Positions 9,977 to 64,000 of a DNA stretch of 64,000 nt are shown here, piece by piece. Source of the DNA: an uncultured virus (IMG/VR IMGVR_UViG_3300042377_000720) (lineage: Duplodnaviria; Heunggongvirae; Uroviricota; Caudoviricetes); the IMG/VR virus record IMGVR_UViG_3300042377_000720, one strand, 5' to 3'. Below the pieces are notes generated by a model, which was not told where the DNA came from, did no database searches, and saw nothing but the letters and a program-made list of their open reading frames with translations. Made by a program: the position numbers and the translations under genes. How positions within the stretch are numbered: the first letter of the stretch is position 1; each line of letters begins with the position of its first letter.

Positions 9977-12814
9977 ATGGCAAATTCAAATAGAGTATTT
10001 GTATCTCCAGGTGTTTATACATCAGAAAAAGATTTAACATTCGTCGCACAAAGTGTAGGTGTTACTACATTAGGTTTGGTAGGTGAAACCTTAAAGGGTC
10101 CAGCCTTCGAACCAATCTTAGTTAAAGATTATGATGAGTTTAAATTGTACTTTGGAGGTTCATCACCAGCAAAAGACGGGGCGGGTAACCCAAAATATGA
10201 GTTACCTTATGTTGCTAAAGCATACCTTGAAGAATCGAATCAATTATTCGTAACAAGAATCCTAGGGTTAACAGGATATAAACCAGTGAAAACTTTCGCA
10301 ATTCAAACCCTTGGTGGTTTTGTTTTGGGGAGTATGACAACAGGTACCACAACAGGTATCACAATGGACCCAACACCATTAGCAACTTACACAGGAAGTA
10401 CAGTATACGCTGAACTTTCGGGTAAAACTGCATATGATGGTACATCTATTACAGATTACATCTACACAGAATTTAGTGGTTTCACAGGTGGTACAGGTAC
10501 ATGGTTCGTTATTGGTGCGGCGGATGCAACAGATGTTGCAGCTCAAGACCCAACTAAAGAAATGATTTCACCACTTACAGGTGACCTAAATGTAAATTCA
10601 TCTTGGAATAAAAATTGGTACAACACATTCAATAACGGTACAAATGAGGTTTATTCTTATTTATTCGTATGGAATGGTTCAACTAACCTATTCTCAGTAA
10701 CAAGATATGAGTACGATGCAACATTAACCAATGACGGTGAAGTTGTTGCGGCGTTCCGTTCAAGAGGTTCTTATTCAGGACAAACATTGTTACTTGAAGT
10801 TACAGGTAACACAAGTTTCAACATTTCAGGTTCTGATTTGTCAACAAATCCTTTCGCCGAGTTTACAGTTAATGTAACGGGTTCTACAAGTGGTGTAAAA
10901 TCATTCACTTGTTCAATGGATTTATCATCATCTAAGTATGTAACTAAAGTGTTAGGTACTGATGTATATGACAAACCTAAATCGGACATTCCGGTGTATG
11001 TTTACGAAACATATCCAAATTATTTAAAGACCGCATACGAACAAGGTTTAGTAAGAGGTATTAGTTTAACTGAACTTTATGTTTCTGAAGGTACAAACTT
11101 CGTTAGAGAGTGGGATACCCCAATTTCTCCAATGGTAGTATCTGAAGTACGTGGTGGTGAGGTTTCTGACCTATTTGAGACTATTACAATTTCAGATGGT
11201 GACGCAGCGAACGCACAAATCAAAATGTCTATCATCAATATCGATATCGAAACAGGTGAATTTGATTTAATTGTTCGTGACTTTAACGATACTGACGATA
11301 ATTTAGTTGCACTTGAGAAATTTACAAGATGTTCAATGAATCCAGACCTACCAGGTTATGTGGCTAAGAAAGTTGGTACTTCTGACGGTGAATACGAATT
11401 ACGTTCAAAATACATCATGTTGAATATGGCTGAAAACCACCCAACTGATGCGTTTCCAGCAGGATTTAAAGGATTTGTAGCAAACACAAACTTCTCAGGT
11501 TCTGTTTTGGGTTCAGTATTATATAAAACGGAATACTACACCGCAGGTGATGTTATCAGTTACAATGTTGATGGTTCTCCAGTTACATCTGCCGGTGATA
11601 AAATTAGAAAAGTAACTTTAGGTCTATCTTCACAAGTTGGACTTGACAAAGACTTATTCAAATATAAAGGAGCGGCGGCTGCGGGTTCAACAAGTGGTTT
11701 CCACTTATCAGTAAACGCATCTACTATTACAGGTACAACATTTACAACAACTCCTTACGATTTAGAAGGACAAACAGGTGTTGATAATCCATTAACAGCA
11801 ACAACTTACCGTAAATTCACATTTGCAGTTGGTGGTGGTTTCGATGGTTTTGACATTTATCGTCAAACTAAAACTTACGGAGACGGATATATCTTTGGTA
11901 AATCAACATATGTAAGTGGTCACACAACTAACGGTGGTGTATTCAGTACAACTGTTGGAAACTCTGATTATTATGCATACCTACAAGGTATTAACACATT
12001 CGCAAACCCTGAAGCGGTAGATATCAACATCTTCGCAACTCCGGGTATTAACTTCTACGACCATAGTTCATTAACTACACAGGCAATCGATATTATGGAA
12101 AACGATAGAGCGGATTCACTTTATGTTATTGCATCTCCAAACGTATCAACTGCGGACGAAGTAATTGACGCATTGGACGGTGTGGCATTGGATACTAACT
12201 ATTCAGCAACCTACTGGCCTTGGATTCAAGTTAGAGACCAAGACAACGCAACTCAATTATACATTCCACCTACAGGTGAGGTTGTAAGAAACATTGCGTT
12301 AACAGATAACGTATCATTCCCTTGGTTCGCAGTAGCGGGTTATTCAAGAGGTTTGGTTAAGGCAATCAAAGCGGTTAAAAAATTAACTCTTGACGAAAGA
12401 GATGATTTATATAAGGCAAGAATCAACCCAATCGCTACTTTCTCTGATACAGGTACCATTATTTGGGGTAACAAAACCCTTCAAGTAAGAGAATCTGCAT
12501 TGGATAGAATTAACGTAAGAAGATTATTGTTAAGAGCAAGAAAACTTATTTCAGCAGTTGCTGTAAGATTGTTGTTCGAACAAAATGACGAACAAGTTCG
12601 TAATGAATTCTTGAGATTAGTAAACCCAATTCTTGAAGCAATTAAGAGAGAAAGAGGTTTATATGAGTTCCGTGTAACTGTATCTAATGACCCTGAGGAC
12701 ATTGATGCAAACACACTTAGAGGTAAAATCTATGTAAAACCAACTCGTTCACTTGAATTTATCGATGTTGAGTTCATAATTACCCCAACAGGAGCATCAT
12801 TTGATAATATCTAA
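9977..12814 (+). CDS. contractile tail sheath protein
   Basis: VSPGVYTSEKD N-terminus; YWPW, PWFAVAG..RG, INPI, WGNKTL, RINVRRL, IYVKPTRSLEFI C-terminal core. Confidence 0.95.
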   Translation: MANSNRVFVSPGVYTSEKDLTFVAQSVGVTTLGLVGETLKGPAFEPILVKDYDEFKLYFGGSSPAKDGAGNPKYELPYVAKAYLEESNQLFVTRILGLTGYKPVKTFAIQTLGGFVLGSMTTGTTTGITMDPTPLATYTGSTVYAELSGKTAYDGTSITDYIYTEFSGFTGGTGTWFVIGAADATDVAAQDPTKEMISPLTGDLNVNSSWNKNWYNTFNNGTNEVYSYLFVWNGSTNLFSVTRYEYDATLTNDGEVVAAFRSRGSYSGQTLLLEVTGNTSFNISGSDLSTNPFAEFTVNVTGSTSGVKSFTCSMDLSSSKYVTKVLGTDVYDKPKSDIPVYVYETYPNYLKTAYEQGLVRGISLTELYVSEGTNFVREWDTPISPMVVSEVRGGEVSDLFETITISDGDAANAQIKMSIINIDIETGEFDLIVRDFNDTDDNLVALEKFTRCSMNPDLPGYVAKKVGTSDGEYELRSKYIMLNMAENHPTDAFPAGFKGFVANTNFSGSVLGSVLYKTEYYTAGDVISYNVDGSPVTSAGDKIRKVTLGLSSQVGLDKDLFKYKGAAAAGSTSGFHLSVNASTITGTTFTTTPYDLEGQTGVDNPLTATTYRKFTFAVGGGFDGFDIYRQTKTYGDGYIFGKSTYVSGHTTNGGVFSTTVGNSDYYAYLQGINTFANPEAVDINIFATPGINFYDHSSLTTQAIDIMENDRADSLYVIASPNVSTADEVIDALDGVALDTNYSATYWPWIQVRDQDNATQLYIPPTGEVVRNIALTDNVSFPWFAVAGYSRGLVKAIKAVKKLTLDERDDLYKARINPIATFSDTGTIIWGNKTLQVRESALDRINVRRLLLRARKLISAVAVRLLFEQNDEQVRNEFLRLVNPILEAIKRERGLYEFRVTVSNDPEDIDANTLRGKIYVKPTRSLEFIDVEFIITPTGASFDNI

Positions 12815-16568: not shown

Positions 16569-19500
16569 ATGCCAAGTTATTTAGATTTTAGTAGTACATC
16601 GACATTCAGGGACTTCTTAATATCAAAGACGTTACAACGTCCATTTGGTCCCCAAACATTTACTGCGGCAAACTATAGTGTTCAGACTCTAAGTAATTTA
16701 GCCAATGTTGACCCAGGTGCGGTCGACACAAACCGTGCAAATGATTTATTACAGATTAAAAATACAAACATTTTTAAACCTGTAAGTTACTTTGTAACTG
16801 AAAATATTAATACAATACCAAGAAGTGCCAATTTAAATTTATACCCCTATTTTACAAGAGGAGATATAAGTAGTTTATTTGGTATTATGTCTAACAGTAA
16901 CTACGATAATGAATCGCAGTTAATGAAATTCGCGGCATTAAACATACGTGAAAATAGAGACGGTCCCGTTTTTGCGAGGATTACACAAAATTTAACTGCG
17001 GCCACATTAGGTAGAGTTAGAATTGCGGATGCAATAAATGGAAACACAGCAACGGCAATCAATATCGTTACAGGTAGAGAACCGTTAATTGAAAAGAATT
17101 ATAAAATTACGGTCGCCAAGACATTATTAGGTAAGGGGATAGATTTTCTACAAACCGTTGCGGGTGTCGAATTCCCGTTTAGTGAAATACCGGGTGATTA
17201 TTTATCTAACCCACAAAACCCAATTGAAAATAGACCAACACCAAGAACTGAAGGTGGGGCAATTCTACAAGATATTACAGGTGCGTTAGGTTCATTAATT
17301 GGAATTCAAAGAAGACCAAAGGTTTCAAGAAAACCTTCTGATTTGATGATTGAATATATGGGTGATGGTCAAAAACAAACTTTGTTTGACAACTTATCAT
17401 ATTCGAAATACGCACCAAACTACACGACTACTGCAAGGTCACAACAGTCTTCAAAACTTTTTAACAACATTAGTCAATTTGCTCAAGGAGTTAAATCTCT
17501 TTTAGGGTTAGAGGCACCAAAAGGTGTTGCATATATTGGTGATGATAGAAGTGAAGATGTTAAGATGACAATGTCTGACGCAAATAACAATATGGTAAAA
17601 GGTAGTTACTATATGGGTATGATGTTTGACCCTGTTCAGACATCTTTATTTGAAAGACAAAGAAATATAAGTGAAGGAGGTACACTAAGTACTAAACTAA
17701 CATGGATTAGTCGTAATTCAAAAGAATATAATTTATCACCAAATGAAACAAAAATTCCACGTACCGGTTTCTTTGGTGAAAGGTCGGAAACAACATATTC
17801 AAGAGAACAAACATCACATGTTGATTCTCTATCAACAAAATATGGTTTTAGAGAAGATTCGATTTTAGGTAAAACACAGGAACTCCTTGATTCTATGCCG
17901 AATGACGGCATGGCGTCTCGTACTCACGTTGGTAATGTTATTGACCAAACAAGTAGAGTGTTCAGAGAAGGTGAAACAATGTTATCAAGAGGTTCCGCAA
18001 TTCAATATGTTGACAAATACACAAAAGAAAACACCGGTATAGAATATTGTAGAGTGTGGACAAAAGATAGGTCTTACTTTAACTATTCAGATACCATGAA
18101 GAGAACGGGTAATATCCGTAAATTCGATGATAGTGTGATGTCAACCCCATGGAACTTGAACATTGCACCTATGTCAGATGGTGATAGAAATTTTGAAGGG
18201 GTTTCAACAAACATTAAAAAAGGACCTCCCGGAGATGGATTTTATGCAAAAAAATATATGTTCTCAATTGAGAACTTGGCATGGAAAACATCAAACACCC
18301 CTGGATTCACATATAATGATTTACCTTACTGTGAAAGAGGTAACAACGGAGGTAGAGTTATGTGGTTTCCACCATATGACTTAAAAATCAGTGAGCAGAA
18401 CTCAGCAAGATGGAGTGATAACACATTCTTAGGTCGACCTGAACCAATATATACGTACCAAGATACATCAAGAACGGGAACATTATCATTCAAAGTGGTT
18501 GTCGACCACCCTAGTATCTTAAACCTATTAGTTAGAGAACACTTTAAAAATATGAGTGACGAAGAGTCCGAAAATTACATCAACGCATTTTTTGCGGGAT
18601 GTGAGGAATTGGATTTCTATTCACTTATTAGAAGATACACTTATTTGGATTCTGATGACATCACTTTAATAAAGATGTTCTTAGAAAAAGGTAAAGACCC
18701 TGAAGTAATTAAGAAATACAAAACCATTATAGAACCCGTTGTTAATACGGACCAAAGTGGTGGTTCGGCAAACGCTAACAATGGTAAAAATGAAGGTTTT
18801 AAATGTGTTCTTAAATATGATAACGACATTCCGGGTCCACGTTTTCAATCCGTAGAAGTTGACACACCATACGGTCAATTGTTTGAACCGTTCTACATAC
18901 AAAAAACAGGACATACCGCGGCACTTGATACCGCATTAAGAAGTATTACTGGTATAACACAAACCGCACAAGTTTTAAAAGAGAGAGAATATGTTTTTGG
19001 TAAAACGGGAACTACAATTGATAATGCAGCCGTTCTTTATCAAACAAATTTACTTGATGGTTATTTTGAAACGGCAAAAAAAGAATATGAGAAGTTTACT
19101 GGTGGAACTGCAACACTTAAAGAAATGATTAGTGGGGGTACTGTACAAAGAATTTACTTAACAGTTGAATCGTCTTGTTCATCAGTTGCATCTGAACTAT
19201 ATAATGAAAACTTGGCACTTAGAAGAAGTTCAAGTATTATAAAAGAATTCTTTAAAAATATTTCAAAAGATGGAACTGTTCCTAAAGAATTTAAATGGGT
19301 TAAAAGTATTGGTATTGCTGAGAATAAAAACTTATCTGAAAATGATAAAGTTATCATTTCGAAAGGTAAACCAATAGTTATTAAAAAAGAATATAAATTA
19401 AGTGATTTTGGATGGACGGATAATACGGGTTCAGTTGTTATTGACTCGGCAAACTACGGTGAAAATTTTACAGGACCGTCACCCGATAGTCAATGTAGAG

Positions 19501-21377: not shown

Positions 21378-21700
21378 TGGCAAGGGATTATTTTAACAGA
21401 TATCAGTTTTTCATTGAGGACAGTGAATTTAAAATTGTTCCGGGTATTGAGATTCCGATTAAAGGAACCGACAAGTATACATTCTATAAGAAAGGAAAAG
21501 ATAGATTGGATAAAATCTCTCAAGAATATTATAATTCACCCGTTTTTGGTTGGGTTATTTTAATGGCAAATCCATTGGCCGGTAGTTTAGAGTTTGAAAT
21601 TCCGAACAATTCGTTAATTAGAGTACCATTTCCTTTAACTACGACTTTACAAGATTACAAAAGAAGTGTAGAATTGTATAATTTATATTATGGCGAGTAA
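21377..21700 (+). CDS. LysM-like baseplate protein (gp53/gpX-like)
   Basis: DRLDKISQEYYNSPVFGWVILMANP...IRVP. Confidence 0.75.
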   Translation: MARDYFNRYQFFIEDSEFKIVPGIEIPIKGTDKYTFYKKGKDRLDKISQEYYNSPVFGWVILMANPLAGSLEFEIPNNSLIRVPFPLTTTLQDYKRSVELYNLYYGE

Positions 21701-47589: not shown

Positions 47590-48507
47590 ATGGCAGTAGG
47601 AAGTTACGGAATTATAAGACCCGCGGACGTTTCTCCAGAAGATGTGGAAATTTACTTCCACTATGTATCGGGAAGAACGAGTGATGCAACTGCGACTTTA
47701 AAAAGACTTAGTACTAATGATGTACTAACACCTGTATTCCATAATACGGATACAACAGACGATACGAGTGCTCCCGATGTGGAAATTTTGGGTGGTTTGT
47801 ACAATTTAAAATTAACCGCTGCAGATTTTTCTGATTTAGGTATCTATACTTTACACATCAGACCTAAACAAATTCGCACAACAATTACTGATTGTGGTAT
47901 TTTAGCGTCGTTACCATCCGTTAGAGGATTGGTTATCGATTTAAGTAATGTACCATCGGCTGATAGAAATAAATTTACCCCACAAGGGTTGGTTGGTTAT
48001 AGAGTTGAGTATATTAACTCATCAGACAATAAGAAGGTGTCTAACTTTTATAGAATCGTTACGTCGTCTTTCTATTGTACACCAATTGTATCAAACTTAA
48101 CTAGTACTTCACAAAAGTCTATTAGATATCAATACAGTGAACAGGCTACGAACTTGATGTTCTTAACGGTAACACCATCTTCGGCACCTTCGAATAAACC
48201 AAACACGGTTCCATTCATTGGTACTCCATCACAAAAAATTATTTTATCTAACACCTACTTCAACCCAACAACTGTTGAGATTGAAATGGTTGAACATGAC
48301 GCAACTACGTTAGCACACGCATTATACGGTAATCAAAGTAAGGCGATTTCTCAAGGTATCTACACGATATACGATAATAACAATAACATCTATAGACAAT
48401 ACAATCTTTACGAAGTTAAGGACGAGTTTAATGAAACATTATACGAAGTTCGTGAAGAGAGAACAGATATTGATGAAACCTTAAATTTTGATACGATTAC
48501 TGTATAA
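47590..48507 (+). CDS. putative virion structural protein
   Basis: TATTTAT at 47571-47577; coupled to the 2703-aa gene. Confidence 0.55.
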   Translation: MAVGSYGIIRPADVSPEDVEIYFHYVSGRTSDATATLKRLSTNDVLTPVFHNTDTTDDTSAPDVEILGGLYNLKLTAADFSDLGIYTLHIRPKQIRTTITDCGILASLPSVRGLVIDLSNVPSADRNKFTPQGLVGYRVEYINSSDNKKVSNFYRIVTSSFYCTPIVSNLTSTSQKSIRYQYSEQATNLMFLTVTPSSAPSNKPNTVPFIGTPSQKIILSNTYFNPTTVEIEMVEHDATTLAHALYGNQSKAISQGIYTIYDNNNNIYRQYNLYEVKDEFNETLYEVREERTDIDETLNFDTITV

Positions 48508-54500: not shown

Positions 54501-56618
54501 ACACCAACTAGTACACCTACGGCAACTCCTACGGGAACTAGTACACCAACAGCAACTCCGACTGAAACTCCTACGGCAACTCCGACAGGAACTAGTACAC
54601 CTACGGAAACGCCAACCGCGACACCGACAGGAACTAGTACACCTACTGCAACTCCTACGGAAACGCCAACAGAGACACCAACGGAAACGCCAACAGCAAC
54701 TCCTACAGGAACAGCAACTCCTACGGGAACAGCAACTCCTACTGAGACGCCAACAGCAACCCCTACGGGAACTGCAACTCCTACGGAAACACCAACTAGC
54801 ACACCTACTGCAACTCCGACAGGAACAGCAACCCCAACAGGAACCATTACACCAACTAATACAGAAACGCCGACATCGACACCGACAGGAACTAGTACAC
54901 CTACTGCAACTCCTACGGAAACACCAACTATAACCCCTACAGGAACTGCAACACCTACCGCAACTCCTACGGAAACGCCAACCGCAACTCCTACGGGAAC
55001 TGCAACTCCGACAGCAACTCCTACGGAAACACCAACTGCGACACCAACTATAACCCCAACACCTACGGAAACGCCGACAGCGACGCCAACTGCAACTCCT
55101 ACGGAAACACCAACCGCAACTCCAACAGGAACAGCAACTCCAACAGGAACTGCAACACCAACAGAGACGCCAACAGCAACTCCAACAGAGACACCTACGG
55201 AAACGCCGACAGCGACGCCAACTGCAACTCCTACGGAAACACCAACCGCAACTCCAACAGGAACAGCAACTCCAACAGGAACAGCAACTCCAACAGGAAC
55301 AGCAACTCCAACAGGAACTGCAACACCAACAGAGACGCCAACAGCAACTCCAACAGGAACAGCAACTCCAACAGGAACAGCAACTCCAACAGGAACTGCA
55401 ACACCAACAGAGACGCCAACAGCAACTCCAACAGAGACACCTACGGAAACGCCAACATCAACACCACCTATTAATCTTATTCTTACATCATGTTGTGATG
55501 TAAGTCAATTTAAGTATGTAACGGTAGATGCTGGTGCATATGCAATAGATACTAATTTAACAACAAGTATTTTTGGATGTTGTTACCATTTAACCGACAT
55601 TGGTGGTAATGGTTCAGATGGATATTATCCTGGAACCACTTTATTTGATTTTACCACATGTGAAGATTGTTTGATTGAGAATCCGGGGTTATATGTGAAT
55701 GTTAATTTAGACTCTTGTTGTCCTGAAAATCCTACAGTTAATAAACTTGATATTGGGGTGGGATGCTCAACAGAATATACTTTACCAATCGTTGGTCAGA
55801 TTATTAATTACTATGGATATTGTTACACAATAACAAGCGTAGGGTCAACAAATGAAGGATGTGCACCAATATATCAATATTATAACACATGTTCAGATTG
55901 TGGACCATGCATAACACCTACACCGACAGTAACACCAACTAGTACGGCAACCCCTACAGGAACACCAACACCGACAGTAACACCAACCAGTACTGCAACA
56001 CCAACTAGTACTGCAACCCCTACAGGAACACCAACTCCTACTGTAACACCAACAGCAACCCCTACAGCAACCTTGGCGGTTGAATGTTACAACATAGGAC
56101 CATCATATACGGGTGGTTGGATTTATTATATTAACTGTACAGGTGGAACGCAAGAACAGTATTTCAACCCGGGAGAAACGGGCACATTATGTATTGACGA
56201 ATTACTTACTGACACTAATAACATTGCGGTACCAACAGGTGTACAGTGTTATGACTGCACCCCTTGTCCACCATATAACCCGGCACCATTAATTTGTACG
56301 TGTCATGAAATAACAATTAGTCAAGAGGATATAGATAATGCGACAGGTAACAACAACCCTGTTACCATAAATGGGGCATACTACCCAAGTGCAAATGGAA
56401 AAGTATTCTTTAAATATTTTGAGTGCGGTTATGGTAATGAACCAAGGTTAACGATGTTTGGTGTTGCAGGAATATATAACATATGTATTTGGAGTGCAGA
56501 TACTCGTTACTCACCTGCATTGGTTTACTTCCAAGGTGACGTTCAACTGACAGCTCCAACTTCTAGTTATGTAAACAGTTTAGTACCATGTAATAAACCC
56601 GAGGATTGTGATAGATAA
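48507..56618 (+). CDS. giant baseplate wedge/fibre protein (P2 gpI/gp7-like motif) with mucin-like Thr/Pro tracts and Cys-rich modules
   Basis: [14 protein letters not shown]...[19 protein letters not shown] wedge motif; about 830 aa of T-x-T-P repeats. Confidence 0.7.
52839..53828 (+). repeat. coding Thr/Pro tandem repeat tract 1 (330 codons)
   Basis: Degenerate 12/18-bp units encoding [14 protein letters not shown]. Confidence 0.95.
54132..55469 (+). repeat. coding Thr/Pro tandem repeat tract 2 (446 codons)
   Basis: Same units; exact DNA duplications toward the 3' end. Confidence 0.95.
55914..56072 (+). repeat. coding Thr/Pro tandem repeat tract 3 (53 codons)
   Basis: [16 protein letters not shown] units. 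Confidence 0.9.
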
Positions 56619-56660
56619 AATAAAGAATAAAAGTATTTATAAAATAACAAGAAAAGACAT

Positions 56661-57686
56661 ATGTTTATAACATTTACAATACCATCAGGATATACCGCAA
56701 CAGATGCGGGACCATTTAATATTTCGGGATTAACCGATACGTTTGATGTTGTTCTTTTAGCAACAGGTATCACAAAATCTCAATTATTAACGGGTTATAC
56801 TGTTGACACCACACCATACACAATTGTAAGTGGAACAGTTGCTAGTGTTGGATTATGTACAAATGAAGTTAATTATGTTATTAGTTCTACCACACCAACA
56901 CCTACTGTAACACCAACGGGAACTAGTACTCCTACAGTAACACCAACGGGAACTAGTACTCCTACGGGAACACCAACGGAAACCATTACCCCCACACCAA
57001 CAGGAACTAATACCCCAACTGAAACGCCGACAACAACACCTACTACGACACCAACAAGTACTAACACACCAACAGTGGTAACACCAACAGAAACACCAAT
57101 CCTATTTTGTTATGGTTATAACATCGAAGGTGCCGCATCTATTGATGTTGAATGGTTAGAGTGTGATGGAACACCAAATTCTGCAACAGTAACAAGTGCA
57201 ATAGTTGTTTGTGCTCAAAATGGTTCAGTATTTCAAACCGGAGGTGAGGGTAACATAACACAACTAGGGGAATGTGAAACGATTACACCAATGGAAACTC
57301 CAACACCGACAGGTACTAATACACCAACATCAACACCAACGGGTACTAATACACCAACATCAACACCAACAATAACTGTTACACCTACATTCACACCTGA
57401 ACCAATAGGAACATCCGCATATGAGGCGGAAGAATGGTCATGTGAATACGATTCAGGAGGAGTAGCAACAGGATGTACAATGATAAATGATAACGTAATT
57501 GTTGAGATGCCAACATCAACGTCTCCTGTATTTGGTAGATTCTACATTGAAAATGTTGGGGCGTGTACTGGAAGTATTTTTAAAATTACAGGTAACACTA
57601 TAAGTGGTGGACCTAACTTAATACTTTACGGAACAACAGGTCATGGCGTGTGTACGAATGCATGTCAAGAAAATTGTCAATTATAA
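56661..57686 (+). CDS. Thr/Pro-linker, Cys-rich putative fibre protein
   Basis: DAGPFNI N-terminal domain, two TP tracts, Cys modules; late motif at 56634-56641. Confidence 0.65.
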   Translation: MFITFTIPSGYTATDAGPFNISGLTDTFDVVLLATGITKSQLLTGYTVDTTPYTIVSGTVASVGLCTNEVNYVISSTTPTPTVTPTGTSTPTVTPTGTSTPTGTPTETITPTPTGTNTPTETPTTTPTTTPTSTNTPTVVTPTETPILFCYGYNIEGAASIDVEWLECDGTPNSATVTSAIVVCAQNGSVFQTGGEGNITQLGECETITPMETPTPTGTNTPTSTPTGTNTPTSTPTITVTPTFTPEPIGTSAYEAEEWSCEYDSGGVATGCTMINDNVIVEMPTSTSPVFGRFYIENVGACTGSIFKITGNTISGGPNLILYGTTGHGVCTNACQENCQL

Positions 57687-57690
57687 TTAA

Positions 57691-59382
57691 ATGGGACTAA
57701 ACGTAAGAATATATAATATAATCTCAAATGGTAATTACACGATTCGTTATAAGTCGGGTAATAATCCATACCCCGTTGAAACTAATTCAACTTTTACGTT
57801 ATTGGGTTCATATACTCCGTCAACAACTGAAATAACAATTTCAGGTTTAACATTCGATACTCAGTATTGGATTAAAATGACGGACAATGCAACGGGTAGA
57901 TATATTGTTCAAAATATCTTTACTCACGATAGTAAGGCGTTCCCATGTTATGACACAATCTGTTTTAGTATCGATGTGACATGTGAAAACCAATCAACAC
58001 CTACACCAACGATAACTCCAACTCCAACCATAACGACAACCCCAACATCAACATCAACGGGAACTATAACAACTACCCCGACATCAACTACTTGTAGTGA
58101 CGATATTGTAAGAACATTGAACAGTCCATCAGTGTATAACAGACCTTCCGGTATGGTGTATAACCCAAATAATAATGAAATTTATGCACTTAACGTTGGT
58201 GCGGCATATTACATTAGTAGAGTTATACCAAACTCATCAACACAATCCATATTTGGGACATTTACGACCAGTGTAAACACATCTATTATAGGTATGAATA
58301 CCGTAACAAATAAAGTTTATGGGGTTGACGTAGGTGGCACTATACGTATGCAAAATACAACAATTCCACAAACCGAAACATATTTAGGAAATGGACCAAC
58401 AAATCCAAAGGCGTTTGAATTTAATTCGGGAGATAATGTAATGTATCTTTCCTCATATACTGGAACGAGTTCAGGTGAAATATCGGTAATAGATGGTTCT
58501 TCTGAAACATTTATTACACAAGTTACTGGTTTACCAATTAATAGTACGAGTTATACATTAAGTTATAACTCAATTAACGATACTCTTTATCTTCCGGGTA
58601 CGGGTACAACTGTTCAAAGATTTTCTACGATATCATATACAATAGTTGGGAGTATTGCGGTCAGTGGAACGGTTCGTTCATTATCATATAAATCATCAAC
58701 TAATCAATTATTTGTAATCCATACAGGGGGTTATGATGTAATCGATTGTTCAACAAATAGTGTTACAAATTCATATAGTATTTCACTTGGGTTGACGATT
58801 TATAACTCTGTATATAACAGTGTAAACAATAAATTATACATCCCAATTTTTGATGGTGGAGTTGTTAAAGTTATTGATGTATCAACGGGTACACTATCAG
58901 ATACAATAACAATACCGGATTCAACACCATTTGATGTGGTATTTTATCCACCAACAAACACAATTTATGTGTCCGACCCCAAAACAACAACATTTAAAAT
59001 TGTTGAGATATGTGGTTCAATTGGAGCAACACCAACCCCAACGGTAACACCTACATCAACGACAACCCCAACAATAACTCCAACATCAACGGGAACTATA
59101 ACAACAACCCCAACTTCAACACCAACAATAACTCCAACTTCAACACCTATGGAATTTTACTATTTTATTAGGGCAGTAAGTAACTGTGATACGGGCGCAG
59201 CGAGCGGCCCAACGTACATAGCGAAGTCCCTTGTTTCGTTATCAATAGGGACATTTGTAAATATGAGTAGTTTACCAAATCCTAATTGTGCTTGGAAAAT
59301 AATAAGTGAAACCGTCGGTCCCGAGGACGACATAATAAGCGGAAGTTGTGGAACAAGTATACCTGTGGGTTGCTGTTGTTAA
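57691..59382 (+). CDS. putative fibre/adhesin with FN3-like N-terminus, TP linkers and YncE/YVTN-like beta-propeller
   Basis: ITISGLTFDTQYWI; repeated YNP.NNEIY, YNSVNNKLY, VIDVST blades. Confidence 0.7.
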   Translation: MGLNVRIYNIISNGNYTIRYKSGNNPYPVETNSTFTLLGSYTPSTTEITISGLTFDTQYWIKMTDNATGRYIVQNIFTHDSKAFPCYDTICFSIDVTCENQSTPTPTITPTPTITTTPTSTSTGTITTTPTSTTCSDDIVRTLNSPSVYNRPSGMVYNPNNNEIYALNVGAAYYISRVIPNSSTQSIFGTFTTSVNTSIIGMNTVTNKVYGVDVGGTIRMQNTTIPQTETYLGNGPTNPKAFEFNSGDNVMYLSSYTGTSSGEISVIDGSSETFITQVTGLPINSTSYTLSYNSINDTLYLPGTGTTVQRFSTISYTIVGSIAVSGTVRSLSYKSSTNQLFVIHTGGYDVIDCSTNSVTNSYSISLGLTIYNSVYNSVNNKLYIPIFDGGVVKVIDVSTGTLSDTITIPDSTPFDVVFYPPTNTIYVSDPKTTTFKIVEICGSIGATPTPTVTPTSTTTPTITPTSTGTITTTPTSTPTITPTSTPMEFYYFIRAVSNCDTGAASGPTYIAKSLVSLSIGTFVNMSSLPNPNCAWKIISETVGPEDDIISGSCGTSIPVGCCC

Positions 59383-59417
59383 AAAAATAATAAAAAATAG
59401 ATTCATATTTAATATAG

Positions 59418-60857
59418 ATGCCAACTTCAAGTTATGAAATAACAGTTTCCAATTTTAATGGTACAACACCATGTGAAAGTTATTCAGTTTATACTGGAAT
59501 AACTCACGACATTGATGACGCTGATTATGTGGAAGACGTTAACGTACCCGTTTCGGGATACACTTTAAGTTTGAATGTTGATAGTTCATATGATAATGTT
59601 TATTTATTTATTGAACATTGTGATGGACACATTAACTCGGTGCCAACGTCAACACCTAAATTACAAGGTGGTTATCAATTGGTTTTTGTTGATTTAAGAT
59701 GTGACGATTGTATTTCACAAATAATCCCAACACCAACCCCCACGGGGACTAACACACCAACGGTAACACCAACACCCACAACAACTAGTACTGATGTTAC
59801 ACCAACACCAACAATAACCCCAACTCCCACTGTGACCCCCACAGGAACTAGTACACCTACGGCAACCCCTACAGGAACTCCAACAGGAACCAGTACCATA
59901 ACACCAACACCGGCAGAAGGATGTTATTGTTATGAATTCAATATTGATGAACGTGAATTTGGAGAATACGGAGGGCCAATACTTCAATATTTAGATTGTA
60001 GTTTAACACCTCAAAGTATAGGATTTAGTGGTGTTGGGGGATTTTCAGGATATTGCATATCCTCAATAACAGATTGGTATAGATATAATGGACCGGAAGA
60101 GTCTGATATCGTTCCGATTGAGTTTTCAACATATACTAATACATTAAACCCATGTACTATAGATGGTGATTGTATTGTAACGGGTGAACCAACACCAACA
60201 CCTACATTAACCCCTACGGCGACACCAACAATAACACCGACCCCTACTTTAACTCCAACAGGAACTAGTACACCTACTTTAACTCCTACAGGAACTAATA
60301 CACCTACAGCAACTCCTACGGGAACTAGTACTCCAACGGCGACGACAACGGAACAATCAACACCTACACCTACAGAATCAAGACCATGTAATTGTTACAC
60401 TGTTGAATGTTCGAATCCGGAAGGATGTTCGGTAACATATGAAGATTGTAACGGTGTGTTATTTGTAGACTCAATTTCGGGCTCAACAACCATAAATCTT
60501 TGTGGTAATATAGTCAATTTAGACCAACCTAATTTAATAATTACAAATACAGGAAACGCATGTGTATTTGACGGTGAAATATACTCGTGTTTAACTGAGT
60601 GTCAATGCGCGAACATTTACATCGATGAAAGAGATTTAATTGCATCAGATGACGGTATTGTTTATGTTAGTATGATTAAATGTGACGGAACGGAAATTAT
60701 AACCCAATACAATTCTCCTGCAACATATGTTGCGTGTGTACAAGTAATTAATAGTATTTACATTTTAAAATTAGGAATCCAAAGTGCTCCGTCGTATAGT
60801 ACTGCAACGATAATACCTGGTAGTAACTGTACAGTGGATAATGATTGTATGAGTTAA
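59418..60857 (+). CDS. Thr/Pro-linker, Cys-rich putative fibre protein
   Basis: Two TP tracts and three CxC...C modules. Confidence 0.65.
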   Translation: MPTSSYEITVSNFNGTTPCESYSVYTGITHDIDDADYVEDVNVPVSGYTLSLNVDSSYDNVYLFIEHCDGHINSVPTSTPKLQGGYQLVFVDLRCDDCISQIIPTPTPTGTNTPTVTPTPTTTSTDVTPTPTITPTPTVTPTGTSTPTATPTGTPTGTSTITPTPAEGCYCYEFNIDEREFGEYGGPILQYLDCSLTPQSIGFSGVGGFSGYCISSITDWYRYNGPEESDIVPIEFSTYTNTLNPCTIDGDCIVTGEPTPTPTLTPTATPTITPTPTLTPTGTSTPTLTPTGTNTPTATPTGTSTPTATTTEQSTPTPTESRPCNCYTVECSNPEGCSVTYEDCNGVLFVDSISGSTTINLCGNIVNLDQPNLIITNTGNACVFDGEIYSCLTECQCANIYIDERDLIASDDGIVYVSMIKCDGTEIITQYNSPATYVACVQVINSIYILKLGIQSAPSYSTATIIPGSNCTVDNDCMS

Positions 60858-60907
60858 TACCATTTAAAATTTACTTTCTAATATTTATCTGATATATTAG
60901 ATACTAA

Positions 60908-61807
60908 ATGGCATGTACTCCAGATACAGTAACCCCAAAAGGTGTTACAATTAATTTAAATTCGGGTTCAGATTACACAAATTGTACTGTTTATACGGGT
61001 CTAACGGACTCTACGGTTACGGGGACAACTAATTGTGTAAATATAACTGGGACAACATGTACCTTAACAGGTTTGTCTGCAACATTAATGGAAGTTTTTG
61101 TTAAAATTGACTGTGAAGGGTGTTGTTCAAATACATTTAGAGTTAATTTAGATGAATGTTGTGGAGATATAGTATCGACACCAACGCCCACCCCAACAGT
61201 AACTCCTACGGGAACTAGTACTCCTACGGTAACATCCACCTCGACACCAACATCTTCCGTATGTGAATGTAACACGTATAGAATTACATATATTTCTTAT
61301 TGTGGAGAATTTATAAATTGGACTGATTGTAACACAAACACACCGATGTCCGAACGGGGTGATTATTTTGGATTACCTACCCCCCAATTCACTATGGGAA
61401 CGGTGTTAGATTTATGTTCTTGCTCTTTACCAACAACAGATTGTACTTTAGTAACAATAAGTTTAGTTACTACTGGATGTACACTTGAAGGTGGATTTAT
61501 TACAACCACCTCAACTATAACCCCAACCCCAACACCAACATCATCTAATATACAATTTACAGTTCAAACAGGTGATACTCTATGTAATGGTGGGACCTGC
61601 CAATTAAATGGTAATATTGGTAACTCAACAATTTACATGGGTTTAAGTGATTCGTTTGTTGATTCAACAATCGTTTTCTCGGATGCGGGACTGACAACAT
61701 ATTTCCCAGATACCAACGCAATTAATCCCGGCGCTTCATATCCGAATTTATATTATGTACTTAGTGGGGTGTTATATATAGATTGTTTAAAAGGTAGTGG
61801 ATGTTAA
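60908..61807 (+). CDS. Thr/Pro-linker, Cys-rich putative fibre protein
   Basis: N-terminal domain resembles that of the 59418 ORF (VYTGxT...L.V...C.G); TATTTAT at 60882-60888. Confidence 0.65.
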   Translation: MACTPDTVTPKGVTINLNSGSDYTNCTVYTGLTDSTVTGTTNCVNITGTTCTLTGLSATLMEVFVKIDCEGCCSNTFRVNLDECCGDIVSTPTPTPTVTPTGTSTPTVTSTSTPTSSVCECNTYRITYISYCGEFINWTDCNTNTPMSERGDYFGLPTPQFTMGTVLDLCSCSLPTTDCTLVTISLVTTGCTLEGGFITTTSTITPTPTPTSSNIQFTVQTGDTLCNGGTCQLNGNIGNSTIYMGLSDSFVDSTIVFSDAGLTTYFPDTNAINPGASYPNLYYVLSGVLYIDCLKGSGC

Positions 61808-61835: not shown

Positions 61836-64000
61836 ATGAGTTTTCTAAGTAAAAATAATTCGGAGTTCCTATCAGCAAGAATAACCCAAAAGGGAAGAAA
61901 TTCTATTGCCAAAGGAAATTTTGTAATATCATATTTCCAAATTGGGGATTCTGAGTTTGATTACACAAATCCATTCACAGGATTAACGGGTTTAGGTGGT
62001 GTTCAACACCAATCAGTATTCTCACCATTTGATAAAGAAGGTGGGGTAAAATACCCATATAAAATAGATTCATCTGATACCTCAACAACGTATGGTATTC
62101 CTATTGATATGTCAGTAACTGACATTTTAAGAAATGTAATGGGACCTGCGGGATTCGTTAGTAATTACGAAGAATATGATAGTGTTGCATGTACAGGAAC
62201 AACAATCCAATGTACAACACAATCAATCCCATTATCGGGAATTACAGGAACAACAAGTATAATTGTACCAACAGGTTCAAGTTTTAGTGACTGTGAATAT
62301 ATTACGGTGGTTTTCAATCAGTTCGGAGGTACCGACCCTAACTATCCTGTTATCACAGGACAAGCGTCAAGTTTAATTTATCAAGTAATCAGTGTAAGTG
62401 GAAACACAATCACGGTGGATAGAAATTTACCTAACTTCTCAGGATGTTCGGGTAATGTTCAGGTTATTTGTAATTCGTGTGAAAATGAATATCCTATAGA
62501 TGCGGGAATTAGTCCGTATTGTAGTCCAAATGATATCGACCCATCACAACAATTAAATTCGTGGACAATGAATATTGTATGGGATAAAAAACCAACCGGA
62601 TTTGATGTTAATGGTTTAGATGAAAATCTAACTGGTTTCACAAGTAACAAACACGTATCAACAAAACAATTTTTAGGTTATACCACAACAAGTGGTCAAA
62701 CATGGGTAAACAGTACAGGTGGAACAATTACGGGTGTTACATCTTATTACAATTCATTTGACGAGAAAATTATTGTTTCTCCCGAAGAACAAAGAACAAT
62801 TGCGATTATTCATTATTCAGAATTGGGAGATTTAGTTAATGACCCTGAAAGATTTTATAAGTACGATGATTACATCTCAACAAATAATGTTGAAGGTGAT
62901 GCGTTATTGGAAGATGCCGATGAGAACACAATTACCGATTTAGAATATTTTGAGGTTTATATTCCGTTTGTTCAATATCACAGAAATACTGGAACCACAG
63001 TTGGTGCGTTATTTACAATGGATACTACCGATTACTATATGAAATCAAGTATTAACCCAACTCAATTATTATTGTTCAGATATTTGTTAGATGAACAAGG
63101 TTATAAAGTTGGTAAGATTTACGTTAACAACAAAACAATTGTTTTTGACGACCAAGAACTTATTGCGGTACTTGACTATAAATCAAATAGAAAATACACA
63201 TTACCAGCACCTAAAATTAGTTTAATTCCGAGTGACACATCTACAGGAGAATCATTCTTCACAGGTTCAACAACAGGACAAACTATTTGGGTAACATACA
63301 TGTTCAATTACACAGGTGACACACAATTAAATGGATTACCATGTAATTATTATTCTAAAATTGAAGTATTTGATGGTGACGAATGTTTAAAAAACCCATC
63401 TCAATTATTTGTTAAATTTGGAGAAGATAGTTTCCCATTCATGAATAACACAAACGTGTGTTCAGGAGCGTCATCAGGATTCATCGCAAACCAATTCCAA
63501 ATTTTGGTACAAGTTACTGATACAGGTGAACTACCGATTCATGATAACTGGACAAGAATCAATTACACATCACACATTTCGGGACATACGGTTGGACAAT
63601 TAATTGACCCATTAGATATCACTAATGTTTCAATGAAAGTTACAAACGCAATGTATACAAGTGGTACATTATATGATATTGAAAGTTATTTAGGTTTAGT
63701 TCCCAATGAATCTGATTCATTAACCGAACCTGGATTACCACAATTTGGTGATGAACAACCATTTCCGGGAAGTATTAGATTGGTTAGAGCAACTGACATA
63801 GAAAGAATGACATTTATGGTAAACTTACCATCATCTCAGTTCACAACAACACAAAATCCTACTTACCCATCAGGTGCGGATAAAAGAATTACTGAAGTTG
63901 CCTTATTGAACAGTAATAAGGAAGTTATGGTGATTGCTAAAACCGCAAAACCAATTAAAAGAATTGGCACACAAGTGTTTGGAGTAAGATTAGACTTCTA
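61836..64000 (+). CDS. tail-collar/fibre-attachment-like structural protein (about 721 aa, stop cut by window edge)
   Basis: MSFL...ITQKGR...ISYFQIGDSE N-terminus; ITEVALLNSNKEVMVIAK..KPI..RLDF C-terminus; ends TTC TA. Missing from the ORF track. Confidence 0.7.
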   Translation, partial: MSFLSKNNSEFLSARITQKGRNSIAKGNFVISYFQIGDSEFDYTNPFTGLTGLGGVQHQSVFSPFDKEGGVKYPYKIDSSDTSTTYGIPIDMSVTDILRNVMGPAGFVSNYEEYDSVACTGTTIQCTTQSIPLSGITGTTSIIVPTGSSFSDCEYITVVFNQFGGTDPNYPVITGQASSLIYQVISVSGNTITVDRNLPNFSGCSGNVQVICNSCENEYPIDAGISPYCSPNDIDPSQQLNSWTMNIVWDKKPTGFDVNGLDENLTGFTSNKHVSTKQFLGYTTTSGQTWVNSTGGTITGVTSYYNSFDEKIIVSPEEQRTIAIIHYSELGDLVNDPERFYKYDDYISTNNVEGDALLEDADENTITDLEYFEVYIPFVQYHRNTGTTVGALFTMDTTDYYMKSSINPTQLLLFRYLLDEQGYKVGKIYVNNKTIVFDDQELIAVLDYKSNRKYTLPAPKISLIPSDTSTGESFFTGSTTGQTIWVTYMFNYTGDTQLNGLPCNYYSKIEVFDGDECLKNPSQLFVKFGEDSFPFMNNTNVCSGASSGFIANQFQILVQVTDTGELPIHDNWTRINYTSHISGHTVGQLIDPLDITNVSMKVTNAMYTSGTLYDIESYLGLVPNESDSLTEPGLPQFGDEQPFPGSIRLVRATDIERMTFMVNLPSSQFTTTQNPTYPSGADKRITEVALLNSNKEVMVIAKTAKPIKRIGTQVFGVRLDF

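What the first reader, a model, noticed from the sequence alone, without database searches (positions are those of the whole stretch)
9977..64000. Virion-wide [S/T]-G-x-T motif: candidate post-translational modification sequon on surface proteins
Seen (manual counts): 11 copies in the sheath (TGTT, TGIT, TGST, SGKT, SGFT, TGGT, SGQT, TGNT, TGST, TGTT, SGHT), all outside its conserved C-terminal core. There are 11 in the 580-aa ORF 43854, where 11 of about 15 SG/TG dipeptides are followed by xT. ORF 46458 has 9 in 368 aa, ORF 61836 has at least a dozen, and many more occur in ORFs 16569, 21690, 39973, 45598, 48507 and 56661-61807. In contrast PolB has 1 among about 11 SG/TG dipeptides, and NrdA and NrdB have none. 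The buried tail parts (tube, tape measure, gp25, gp6) also have none. The copies sit in unrelated folds and use varied codons, so this is not a DNA repeat. Inference: convergent installation of a recognition sequon, most plausibly for O-glycosylation or another Ser/Thr modification that coats the virion. It differs from the known Bacteroidota O-glycosylation sequon D-[S/T]-[A/I/L/V/M/T]. No modifying enzyme lies in this window.
Basis: partly seen in the sequence, partly recalled or inferred. Interest (0 to 1): 0.9.

Follow-up and report, generated by a model that had tools for sequence, protein, structure and literature searches.

The report
Ser/Thr-Gly-x-Thr tag on phage tails
The outer tail and baseplate proteins of this uncultured 310-kb phage and its relatives carry the short pattern Ser/Thr-Gly-x-Thr far more often than chance, which looks like an address tag, perhaps for sugar attachment, but no modification has been shown.

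Summary
Over ORFs 9977-64000 there are 107 [ST]GxT against 31-38 in shuffles (z 12-14). Without the five Thr-rich ORFs the count is 74 against 12.4 (z 18). Among 4,307 a-b-x-c patterns, TGxT and SGxT are the two top outliers.

The motif is sharp: S/T, then G only, any residue, T only, with a hydrophobic residue before it in 66% of copies. It is not a DNA effect, not paralogy and not generic. T4, Mel-JY01, a Flavobacteriales genome and T9SS cargo give 1.0-1.5x. Orthologous sheaths of Mel-JY01 and T4 have none.

It is not virion-wide. The Thr-rich fibres, the lectin-like array and the inner parts are not enriched.

The genome has 12 ORFs with glycosyltransferase-family hits outside the window. 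One GT2-like gene is shared by all five fully analysed motif-rich genomes and is missing from three motif-poor phages.

No chemistry exists and both structure models were poor. A glycosylation tag is therefore the leading reading but is unproven (about 0.4). The scan had already noted this motif on four related genomes (AI notes).

The parts
9977..12814 (+). Tail sheath, 945 aa. It has 11 [ST]GxT copies, at residues 122, 126, 139, 148, 167, 170, 267, 276, 301, 585 and 647.
   Evidence: PHROG 23 tail sheath at 1.7e-59 and Pfam sheath domains at 659-935. 11 observed against 1.65 (global shuffle) or 2.75 (local shuffle), and no shuffle of 2,000 reached 11. The 45 homologues at 66-93% identity carry 4-14 copies each.
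16569..21377 (+). 1602-aa ORF of no known family. It has 6 copies, five of them clustered at residues 780-855 in a K/E/L-rich context.
   Evidence: 6 against 1.44, p 0.004. No Pfam or PHROG family. The ESM Atlas gave only 'hypothetical protein' clusters.
21690..27533 (+). 1947-aa ORF of no known family, with 9 copies.
   Evidence: 9 against 1.5 or 1.9; no shuffle of 2,000 reached 9.
39973..43854 (+). 1293-aa ORF downstream of the gp6-like wedge gene. It has 5 copies, a marginal excess.
   Evidence: 5 against 1.7 or 2.2, p 0.03-0.06.
43854..45596 (+). 580-aa ORF with 11 copies among 15 [ST]G dipeptides.
   Evidence: 11 against 0.58 or 0.90. 1,051 homologues, all unnamed. Sites 74, 174, 217, 228, 258 and 348 are kept in 25-30 of 31 family members. 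Residues 184-277 model as a small beta-barrel, Z 7.2, a common arrangement only.
45598..46458 (+). 286-aa ORF with 5 copies.
   Evidence: 5 against 0.25; no shuffle reached 5.
46458..47564 (+). 368-aa ORF with 9 copies.
   Evidence: 9 against 1.04; no shuffle reached 9. No PDB relative at E below 0.2.
61836..64000 (+). 721-aa ORF whose stop codon lies just past the window end. It has 14 copies.
   Evidence: 14 against 1.19 or 1.81; no shuffle reached 14. No PDB or PHROG match.
48507..61807 (+). Five Thr-rich ORFs (19-26% Thr) with (T-P-T-x)n mucin-like repeats. [ST]GxT is not clearly enriched here once composition is controlled.
   Evidence: 33 against 18.8 expected, 1.76x. Per ORF, p 0.03-0.4. 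PTxT occurs 255 times against 21.9 expected. Repeats are listed.
1..166 (+). C-terminal end of a 702-aa ORF (genome C1:250203-252311) that lies mostly upstream of the window. It has 12 copies.
   Evidence: 12 against 1.86, Poisson p 6.6e-7. No Pfam or PHROG family.

Best explanation
Hydrophobic-[Ser/Thr]-Gly-x-Thr is a lineage-specific recognition tag. It has been installed many times independently on the non-core, probably outward-facing parts of the sheath, baseplate-distal and other large tail proteins of a broad clade of uncultured T4-like jumbo phages. Some clade-specific factor reads it in the infected cell's cytoplasm.

The most likely reader is a phage-encoded glycosyltransferase that O-glycosylates one of the two hydroxyl residues before or during assembly, giving the tail a glycan coat. 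The best candidate enzyme by co-occurrence is the 259-aa GT2-like protein at genome C1:265470-266249, which lies outside the window.

Shown: the enrichment, its sharpness, its restriction to certain virion proteins, its absence from orthologues outside the clade, its turnover, and the gene inventory. Inferred: that a reader exists, that it is a glycosyltransferase, and which one it is.
For: 1. Size. 74 observed against 12.4 (z 18) in the tail ORFs without the Thr-rich ones. With the hydrophobic residue in front, 49 against 4.2 (z 22).
2. Unbiased scan. TGxT (z 15.2) and SGxT (z 9.3) are first and second of 4,307 patterns; the next has z 5.4.
3. Sharpness, measured in 11 ORFs picked after the fact for their enrichment. 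Position 1 is G at 7.8x (A 1.3x). Position 0 is S at 7.1x or T at 8.4x. Position 3 is T at 7.8x (S 1.4x, A 1.0x, V 1.3x). Spacing x1 gives 90 copies, against 14-32 for other spacings.
4. Not required by the fold. Sheath copies over expectation are 11/1.6 here, 0/0.7 in Mel-JY01 (31% identity over 692 aa) and 0/0.7 in T4.
5. Not generic. Ratios are T4 1.35, Mel-JY01 1.03, a Flavobacteriales 400-kb sample 1.46, 30 T9SS cargo fragments 1.11, and this genome's 171 early ORFs 1.47.
6. Not paralogy or DNA. There is no BLAST similarity among the strongly enriched ORFs. hhalign between the ORF 43854 and sheath families gives probability 0.04%. The NCG codon bias at position 0 holds for all [ST]G dipeptides.
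7. Turnover. The target has 4 fixed, 15 polymorphic and 11 rare columns in the sheath family, and 6, 11 and 22 in the ORF 43854 family. The 16 control patterns reach at most 1, 7 and 19.
8. Breadth. Genome-wide ratios are G005 2.56, G009 (360 kb, terminal repeats) 2.40 and G010 (519 kb, terminal repeats) 2.44, although only 88 and 73 of 341 ORFs of this genome have a hit in G009 and G010. Over 150 sheath representatives the ratio is 4.2x in the nearest 15 and falls to 1.4x at ranks 136-150.
9. Enzymes. 12 ORFs have glycosyltransferase-family hits, and there is also UDP-galactopyranose mutase, a UDP-sugar dehydrogenase and a carbamoyltransferase.
10. Co-occurrence. The GT2-like 259-aa family is found in G000, G001, G005, G006, G009, G010, G011, G012 and G013. 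It is not found in Mel-JY01, immuto or T4.
Against: - There is no chemical evidence of any modification.
- The co-occurrence of the GT2-like gene with the motif is confounded by descent: one clade against three outgroups. The gene was not found in three fragmentary clade members, G004, G007 and G008 (50-75% complete).
- Motif S/T residues are only slightly better conserved than other S/T (0.82 vs 0.69, p 0.10; 0.85 vs 0.67, p 0.02). Motif G is no better conserved than other G.
- Hydrophobic residues at -1 (65%) and +4 (47%), with alternating hydrophobicity upstream, fit a strand-turn-strand element.
- The Thr-rich fibres and the lectin-like array are the most obvious surface parts, yet they are not enriched.
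- The strong preference for T over S at +3 is not what most known O-glycosyltransferases require of a flanking position.
- A jumbo-phage review reads such glycosyltransferase clusters as capsular-polysaccharide modification systems (PMC7824862, passages seen).
- The other candidate enzymes are not universal. PF11397 is absent from complete G009 and G010, and GT2_5 is absent from G010.
Confidence: 0.4

Rival explanations
1. The motif is a structural element. It would be a tight turn or strand cap in which the Ser/Thr hydroxyl caps the backbone, Gly takes a positive phi angle and the beta-branched Thr starts the next strand. This phage lineage would use it heavily in the beta-rich insertion domains of its tail proteins. 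Nothing reads it.
For: - Hydrophobic residues at -1 (65% against 32% background) and +4 (47%), with alternating hydrophobic positions upstream.
- In the two models, 11 of 14 sites in regions with block pLDDT of 57 or more sit at strand or helix boundaries or in loops. At sheath site 267 the pattern is a clean two-residue hairpin (E--E).
- Many sites are position-conserved in the families.
Against: - Beta-rich proteins elsewhere do not show it: T4 1.35x, T9SS cargo 1.11x, and this genome's own ConA-like lectin array 1.24x.
- Orthologous sheaths keep the fold without it.
- A turn element would tolerate S, V or A at +3 and N or D at position 1, which is not seen.
- Modelled contexts are mixed: EEEE at 3 sites, loops at 3, strand ends at 3. 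The models are poor, with mean pLDDT 55.8 and 42.4.
- It leaves unexplained why unrelated proteins of one lineage converge on the motif.
Confidence: 0.3
2. The motif is a tag read by something other than a glycosyltransferase. Candidates are a clade-specific assembly chaperone, a decoration or fibre-docking protein, or another Ser/Thr-modifying enzyme.
For: The same sharpness, clade restriction and turnover as in the main reading. The genome also encodes a cyclophilin, three Methyltransf_24 proteins, a SET-domain protein, a GNAT and about 14 lectin-like paralogues that could dock on virions.
Against: No Ser/Thr kinase, Fic or ADP-ribosyltransferase family was found among the 338 ORFs scanned against Pfam. 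No candidate reader was identified. Glycosyltransferases are by far the most numerous modifying enzymes in the genome.
Confidence: 0.15
3. The excess is inherited rather than selected. On this reading, old domain duplications too diverged for BLAST, or local composition, carry the motif along.
For: Local 30-residue shuffles raise the expectation somewhat, from 31.2 to 37.9. Some copies resemble the FN3-like 'TGLT-N' or fibre repeats. In Flavobacterium phage immuto, a 1.74x excess comes from repeats such as GDGSGLTGIT.
Against: - z stays at 12 with local shuffles.
- There is no BLAST or profile similarity between the enriched families.
- Only 10 of 107 copies have Leu at x, and there are no FN3 hits in Pfam.
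- Many columns are polymorphic or rare, which points to gains as well as losses.
Confidence: 0.1

Closest known systems
Virion O-glycosylation of mycobacteriophages by phage-encoded glycosyltransferases (Freeman et al. 2023, Cell Host Microbe; recalled, not read here; only lists papers that use the term)
   Same: A tailed phage carries its own glycosyltransferases, and outer virion proteins are the proposed substrates.
   Different: As recalled, sugars there sit on C-terminal extensions of capsid and tail-tube proteins, no short sequon is defined, and the chemistry was measured. Here the candidate sites are a sharp four-residue motif spread through sheath and baseplate proteins, and nothing has been measured.
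Bacteroidota general O-glycosylation sequon D-[S/T]-[A/I/L/V/M/T]
   Same: A three- or four-residue Ser/Thr motif marks the sites, and the probable host phylum is the same (Por_Secre_tail domain in a phage protein).
   Different: That motif is not enriched here: 42 observed against 47.9. That system acts outside the cytoplasm (recalled), where phage proteins are not made.
Chlorovirus PBCV-1 major capsid protein glycosylation by virus-encoded enzymes at atypical sequons (recalled; an earlier scan note cites review PMC9614988, not read here)
   Same: A large virus with many glycosyltransferases of its own decorates its particle in the cytoplasm at non-canonical short motifs.
   Different: That case is N-linked on Asn, on a eukaryotic virus capsid. 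Here the candidate residues are Ser or Thr on a phage tail.
Autotransporter heptosyltransferases (BAHT: Aah, TibC) acting on AIDA-I and TibA (recalled)
   Same: A cytoplasmic enzyme glycosylates Ser/Thr at many sites defined by a short strand-loop-strand element in beta-rich surface proteins.
   Different: No BAHT-family hit was seen in the Pfam scans. The substrates there are repeats of one beta-helix, not unrelated proteins.
Collagen-like G-x-T glycosylation (SgtA with BclA3 of Clostridioides difficile; taken from earlier scan notes e1-5684479 and e1-6057779, not checked in print)
   Same: The motif here contains Gly-x-Thr.
   Different: G-x-T without a preceding Ser or Thr is not enriched here: P(T at +3) is 0.09 after other xG, against 0.34 after [ST]G. 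The enriched ORFs have no collagen repeats.

Membership tests
Bacteroidota O-glycosylation sequon D-[ST]-[AILVMT] | Excess of the motif in the candidate substrate proteins | tested here: not met
   42 observed against 47.9 in shuffles, z -0.9.
N-glycosylation sequon N-x-[ST] | Excess of N-x-[ST] (x not Pro) | tested here: not met
   132 observed against 133.2, z -0.1.
Collagen-like G-x-T glycosylation substrates | Gly-x-Thr enriched on its own, or in runs of triplets | tested here: not met
   T at +3 follows 9% of non-[ST] xG dipeptides, against a Thr background of 11.5%. The overall G.T excess (140 against 74.6) matches the [ST]G.T excess in size (74 against 12.4).
Glycosaminoglycan attachment site S-G-x-G (recalled PROSITE pattern) | Gly at position +3 | tested here: not met
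   [ST]-G-x-G is 1.2x expectation in the enriched set.
Fibronectin type III E-F loop 'TGL-x-P/A-x-T-x-Y' | Leu at x, and FN3 domains detectable | tested here: not met
   Leu at x in 10 of 107 copies. No FN3 family among the Pfam hits of the 35 window ORFs.
Phage virion glycosylation system (mycobacteriophage type) | Phage-encoded glycosyltransferase genes | tested here: met
   12 ORFs with glycosyltransferase-family Pfam hits. Three of them fall below Pfam's curated cut-off (GT1 at 26.0 and 23.9 bits against 26.4; GT2_4 at 25.9 against 27.5).
Phage virion glycosylation system (mycobacteriophage type) | Sugars demonstrated on virion proteins | not testable with these tools
   This needs mass spectrometry or glycan staining of virions or of co-expressed proteins.
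The mapping to CAZy GT60 polypeptide alpha-GlcNAc transferases is recalled; GT60's role was seen in a passage of PMC8724618. | Present in every motif-rich genome | tested here: not met
   Present in G000 (6.2e-46), G001, G005 and G011. Absent from complete G009 and G010, and not found in G012 and G013.
   The alignment keeps an N-terminal (I/V)LP(I/V) strand and an acidic E-x-[DE]-D stretch. Pfam GT2 matches 4 of 5 members. Found in 9 clade genomes and not in Mel-JY01, immuto or T4. The contrast is one clade against outgroups, so it is not independent. The family is not found in 3 fragmentary members. The best PDB matches are generic GT2 at E 2e-4.
Two-residue beta-hairpin turn as the sole explanation | One shared local geometry at most sites | tested here: inconclusive
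   DSSP strings at 14 modelled sites are EEE-, ---E, EE--, HHHE and ---- in ORF 43854, and EEEE, EEEE, ---H, ---E, ----, ----, E--E, EEEE and EE-- in the sheath. Model confidence is low.

The most novel reading that the evidence does not exclude
[ST]-G-x-T, with a hydrophobic residue in front, is a true sequon. A clade-specific cytoplasmic GT2-like enzyme O-glycosylates it on folded or folding tail proteins. On this reading a very large, globally distributed clade of uncultured jumbo phages (200-520 kb) carries a sequence-encoded glycan coat on sheath and baseplate, and its sites can be read straight from genomes. The (T-P-T-x)n mucin-like fibres would be a second, separate substrate class for the other glycosyltransferases in the genome.
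Probability: 0.3. Interest if true: 0.85.

Novelty: new variant of a known kind. Interest (0 to 1): 0.62.

Why it matters
Phage particles are usually treated as bare protein. As far as I recall, virion glycosylation has been shown chemically only for a few mycobacteriophages, and without a sequon. A short, sharply defined motif that marks sites on sheath and baseplate proteins across a clade with over a thousand relatives in public data would make phage glycan coats predictable from sequence. It would give a simple test: co-express one small enzyme with one tail fragment and weigh the product. It would also bear on how these abundant lake and ocean phages resist proteases, avoid sticking, or recognise hosts. 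If the motif turns out to be structural, it is still an unusual case of unrelated proteins in one lineage converging on one tetrapeptide.

Tried and rejected
- **DNA-level cause.** Rejected. The NCG codon bias at position 0 is shared by all [ST]G dipeptides, and 102 of 107 twelve-mers are distinct.
- **Paralogy.** No BLAST hits among the strongly enriched ORFs. hhalign of A1 against A2 gave probability 0.04%.
- **Host-proteome or surface-protein bias.** A Flavobacteriales sample gave 1.46x and T9SS cargo 1.11x.
- **Structure mapping.**
  - Both AlphaFold jobs gave poor models, with mean pLDDT 55.8 and 42.4. Exposure could therefore not be measured.
  - The fold search found only a common small beta-barrel at Z 7.2.
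- **PDB sequence searches.** The ORF 43854 family, ORF 61836 and ORF 46458 gave nothing below E 0.2.
- **Motif-poor close relatives with genome context, for a within-clade contrast.**
  - P0140 found nothing in IMG/VR.
  - Of the 80 loci found with alignment A3, every sheath ORF longer than 700 aa had at least 2 copies.
  - No such contrast could therefore be made.
- **Cultured phages with the GT2-like gene.** 0 usable matches in 50,697 GenBank phage records with three family members; there were two weak partial hits at E of 1e-4 or worse.
- **Host assignment from a ClpC-like gene.** Bacteroidota hits at 53-54% identity were barely above Firmicutes and Melainabacteria at 51-52%. The T9SS-domain protein found no genomic relative.
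- **ESM Atlas for ORF 16569.** Only unnamed clusters.
- **Papers.**
  - Five searches found none that describes this motif or this clade's glycosylation.
  - The motif string itself cannot be searched as text, so this is weak evidence of absence.
- **A 43-kb stretch of LR756508 around its sheath genes.** 5 observed against 3.8 expected, not enriched. This covers only part of that genome.
Full report
**What the window is**

The window is C1:186369-250368 (minus strand) of a single 310,691-bp virus record. Pfam and PHROGs mark these genes:
- family-B DNA polymerase (886-3783);
- SNF2 helicase;
- tail sheath (9977-12814);
- tail tube (13121-13609);
- a T4 hub-type protein (13719-14468);
- gp32-, UvsX- and DnaB-like genes;
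- NrdB and NrdA (34051-37473);
- gp25 (37618-38085) and a gp6/Baseplate_J-like wedge protein (38087-39919).

The ORFs after the wedge gene (39973 to the window end) and the giant ORFs 16569 and 21690 match no family. Outside the window lie gp23-type capsid, portal and terminase genes. This is a T4-like jumbo phage.

The nearest GenBank phage by sheath is Microcystis phage Mel-JY01, at only 32% identity. IMG/VR and the protein collections hold many relatives: 694 sheath loci matched, and 1,051 homologues of ORF 43854 were found, all unnamed. A 634-aa phage protein carries a Por_Secre_tail domain (32.9 bits, cut-off 27). That points to a Bacteroidota host, but a ClpC-like gene did not settle it.

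With 2,000 shuffles per ORF, the ORFs from 9977 onward hold 107 [ST]GxT against 31.2 (whole-protein shuffles) or 37.9 (30-residue local shuffles), z 13.9 and 12.3.

No shuffle reached the observed number for these six ORFs:

| ORF | observed | expected (global shuffle) |
|---|---|---|
| sheath | 11 | 1.65 |
| 21690 | 9 | 1.5 |
| 43854 | 11 | 0.58 |
| 45598 | 5 | 0.25 |
| 46458 | 9 | 1.04 |
| 61836 | 14 | 1.19 |

ORF 16569 (6 against 1.44) and ORF 39973 (5 against 1.7) are weaker. The five Thr-rich ORFs 48507-61807 are not clearly enriched once composition is controlled: 33 against 18.8, 1.76x. Without those five, the tail ORFs have 74 against 12.4 (z 18). With a hydrophobic residue in front the count is 49 against 4.2 (z 22).

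In an unbiased scan of all 4,307 a-b-x-c patterns with an expectation of at least 1, TGxT (46 against 6.7, z 15.2) and SGxT (28 against 5.8, z 9.3) rank first and second. The third has z 5.4.

**How the motif is defined**

- After [ST]G, Thr stands at +3 in 34% of cases, against 9% after any other xG and a Thr background of 11.5%.
- In 11 ORFs picked after the fact for their enrichment, only G is favoured at position 1 (7.8x; A 1.3x). Only S and T are favoured at position 0 (7.1x and 8.4x), and only T at position 3 (7.8x; S 1.4x, A 1.0x, V 1.3x). Only a one-residue spacer is favoured (90 copies, against 14-32 for other spacings).
- Because those 11 ORFs were chosen for being enriched, the fold values are inflated, but the selectivity between residues is not.
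- Position -1 is hydrophobic in 65-66% of copies (background 32-34%) and +4 in 47%. The x position is free, but E, M and W never occur there and P occurs once.

**Trivial causes excluded**

- DNA. Codons vary (102 distinct 12-mers of 107). The NCG preference at position 0 is shared by all [ST]G dipeptides in the genome.
- Paralogy. The strongly enriched ORFs have no BLAST similarity to each other. A profile-profile comparison of the ORF 43854 and sheath families gives probability 0.04%.
- A general property of proteins. The same count gives 1.35x in T4, 1.03x in Mel-JY01, 1.46x in 348 ORFs of a Flavobacteriales genome and 1.11x in 30 T9SS cargo fragments. Within this genome it gives 1.47x in the 171 early and metabolic ORFs and 1.24x in the beta-rich ConA-like lectin array. 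The two tail blocks of the window give 4.7x and 7.1x.
- Flavobacterium phage immuto gives 1.74x, which traces to fibre repeats such as GDGSGLTGIT.
- The known sequons D-[ST]-[AILVMT] and N-x-[ST] are at expectation.

**Where the motif sits, and where it does not**

All 11 sheath sites lie at or before residue 647, outside the Pfam sheath domains (659-935). Only site 647 falls in the part that aligns with T4 gp18 (from about 626).

The capsid protein has 4 copies against 0.55 expected. Three of them lie in a stretch that aligns poorly with T4 gp23, and only one is kept in two relatives.

Tube, gp25, gp6, the hub protein and ORF 14612 together expect about 1.4 copies, so zero is not informative. 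ORF 16569 carries 5 of its 6 copies in a K/E/L-rich stretch like that of a 1006-aa ORF beside the hub gene of phage immuto. If it is tape-measure-like, an inner part does carry the motif. The motif is thus a feature of a subset of tail proteins, not of the whole virion.

**Evolution of the sites**

- In 31 members of the ORF 43854 family (51-94% identity), six sites are kept in 25-30 members. S and T swap at position 0, x is free at several sites, and +3 is T or sometimes S. One site present in 17 members is absent here.
- In 45 distinct sheath homologues (66-93% identity) each protein has 4-14 copies. Five sites are near-fixed and about 14 are polymorphic.
- Against 16 control patterns of similar make-up, the target has many more fixed, polymorphic and rare columns. 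It scores 4, 15 and 11 in the sheath family and 6, 11 and 22 in the ORF 43854 family, where controls reach at most 1, 7 and 19. The motif is therefore both kept and repeatedly gained or lost.
- Its S/T residues are only modestly more conserved than other S/T (p 0.10 and 0.02), and its Gly is no more conserved than other Gly.
- Outside the clade the motif is gone. The Mel-JY01 sheath (31% identity over 692 aa) and T4 gp18 have 0 copies.
- Over 150 sheath representatives the excess is 4.2x among the nearest 15 and declines to 1.4x at ranks 136-150. 35 of the 150 are individually significant at p below 0.01.
- Whole genomes of relatives are also enriched:

| genome | notes | ratio |
|---|---|---|
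| G001 | 70% complete | 1.54 |
| G005 | 92% complete | 2.56 |
| G009 | 360 kb, terminal repeats | 2.40 |
| G010 | 519 kb, terminal repeats | 2.44 |

  One 2885-aa ORF of G009 has 75 copies against 14.3 expected. Only 88 and 73 of this genome's 341 ORFs have a hit in G009 and G010.

**Structure**

Both AlphaFold models were poor, with mean pLDDT 55.8 and 42.4, because the alignments held only close relatives. Fourteen sites fall in the better parts. Of those, 11 lie at strand or helix boundaries or in loops and 3 lie inside strands. Only one (sheath 267) is a clean two-residue hairpin. Residues 184-277 of ORF 43854 look like a common small beta-barrel (Z 7.2). Exposure could not be measured. 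This leaves the structural rival open.

**Candidate enzymes**

Scanning 300 further ORFs of the genome found 12 with glycosyltransferase-family hits, three of them just under Pfam's cut-offs:
- a 798-aa fusion of PF11397 'GlcNAc' (6.2e-46) with a GT7 galactosyltransferase domain;
- two GT7 domains fused to ConA-like lectin domains;
- a GT1-GT1-GT2-methyltransferase-UDP-galactopyranose mutase-GT2 block;
- a block with carbamoyltransferase, a UDP-sugar dehydrogenase and a radical-SAM gene.

From memory, PF11397 corresponds to CAZy GT60. A review passage describes GT60 enzymes as polypeptide alpha-GlcNAc transferases that start mucin-type O-glycans in protists (PMC8724618).

Comparison of genomes narrows the field:
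- The GT1/GLF block is shared with Mel-JY01 and immuto, which lack the strong excess, and has no match in G005.
- PF11397 is absent from complete G009 and G010.
- GT2_5 is absent from G010.
- Only the 259-aa GT2-like gene at C1:265470-266249 was found in all five fully analysed motif-rich genomes, and also in G006, G011, G012 and G013. It was not found in Mel-JY01, immuto or T4.
- Its family keeps an N-terminal (I/V)LP(I/V) strand and an acidic E-x-[DE]-D stretch of the GT-A type. It matches Pfam GT2 in 4 of 5 members.
- It has no usable match in 50,697 GenBank phage records.

This is co-occurrence within one clade and is not independent evidence. The gene was also not found in three fragmentary members. 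A jumbo-phage review reads such clusters as systems that alter the host's capsule (PMC7824862). That remains possible for most of these genes.

**Verdict**

The enrichment is real, strong, sharply defined, specific to a clade and specific to certain proteins. It behaves like a tag that something reads. A sugar-attachment site is the most economical reading given the gene content, but it rests on inference only, so I put it at about 0.4. The structural reading stands at about 0.3.

Earlier AI notes of this scan reported the same motif, written there as [ST]-[GA]-x-T, on four related genomes. Here Ala at position 1 is not favoured. Those notes were used as leads, not as support.

Noticed in passing
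window 52800-56100 (ORF 48507-56618, residues about 1445-1800, 1900-2320 and 2500-2525); shorter runs in ORFs 56661, 57691, 59418 and 60908: There are about 800 residues of (T-P-T-x)n mucin-like repeats, 50% Thr and 22% Pro. PTxT occurs 255 times against 21.9 expected. These repeats cause the raised G+C and the negative GC skew at 52-56 kb. They are a classic type of O-glycosylation substrate and a separate candidate target for the genome's glycosyltransferases.
   Followed up: partly
genome C1:13589-15985 (outside the window; L095:13589-15985, minus strand): A 798-aa fusion of a PF11397 'GlcNAc' glycosyltransferase domain (6.2e-46) with a GT7 domain. The best solved relative of the GT7 domain is beta-4-galactosyltransferase 7 (1.5e-7). 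A P4H-like 2OG-Fe(II) oxygenase lies at C1:74788-75657. Together these recall the hydroxyproline-GlcNAc pathway of Skp1 (recalled).
   Followed up: partly
genome C1:147214-161491, plus C1:38640, C1:118219 and C1:252384 (outside the window): An array of about 14 paralogous proteins with a C-terminal Laminin_G_3 (ConA-like lectin) domain. Two further copies of that domain are fused to GT7 glycosyltransferase domains (C1:142172 and C1:143599). They may be interchangeable fibre tips or glycan binders.
   Followed up: no
genome C1:300500-302404 (outside the window): A 634-aa phage protein ends in a Por_Secre_tail (T9SS sorting) domain (8.3e-8, 32.9 bits). This suggests a Bacteroidota host and possibly export of a phage protein by the host's type IX system.
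   Followed up: partly
window 16569-21377, residues 780-855: Five [ST]GxT copies sit in a K/E/L-rich, helix-like stretch (for example '...KEYEKF TGGT ATLKEMI SGGT...'). The context resembles that in a 1006-aa ORF next to the hub gene of Flavobacterium phage immuto. The ORF may be tape-measure-like, which would put the motif on an inner part.
   Followed up: no
genome C1:61900-63324, C1:1100-1525 and C1:100058-100354 (outside the window): The phage also encodes a TnpB/Cas12f-like protein (Cas12f1-like_TNB, 1.4e-14), an SmpB homologue (1.2e-40) and a 98-aa SET-domain protein (4.1e-11).
   Followed up: no
G009:C1:317411-326068 (a relative, 360-kb complete record): A 2885-aa ORF with 75 [ST]GxT copies against 14.3 expected (Poisson p 1.6e-29).
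   Followed up: no
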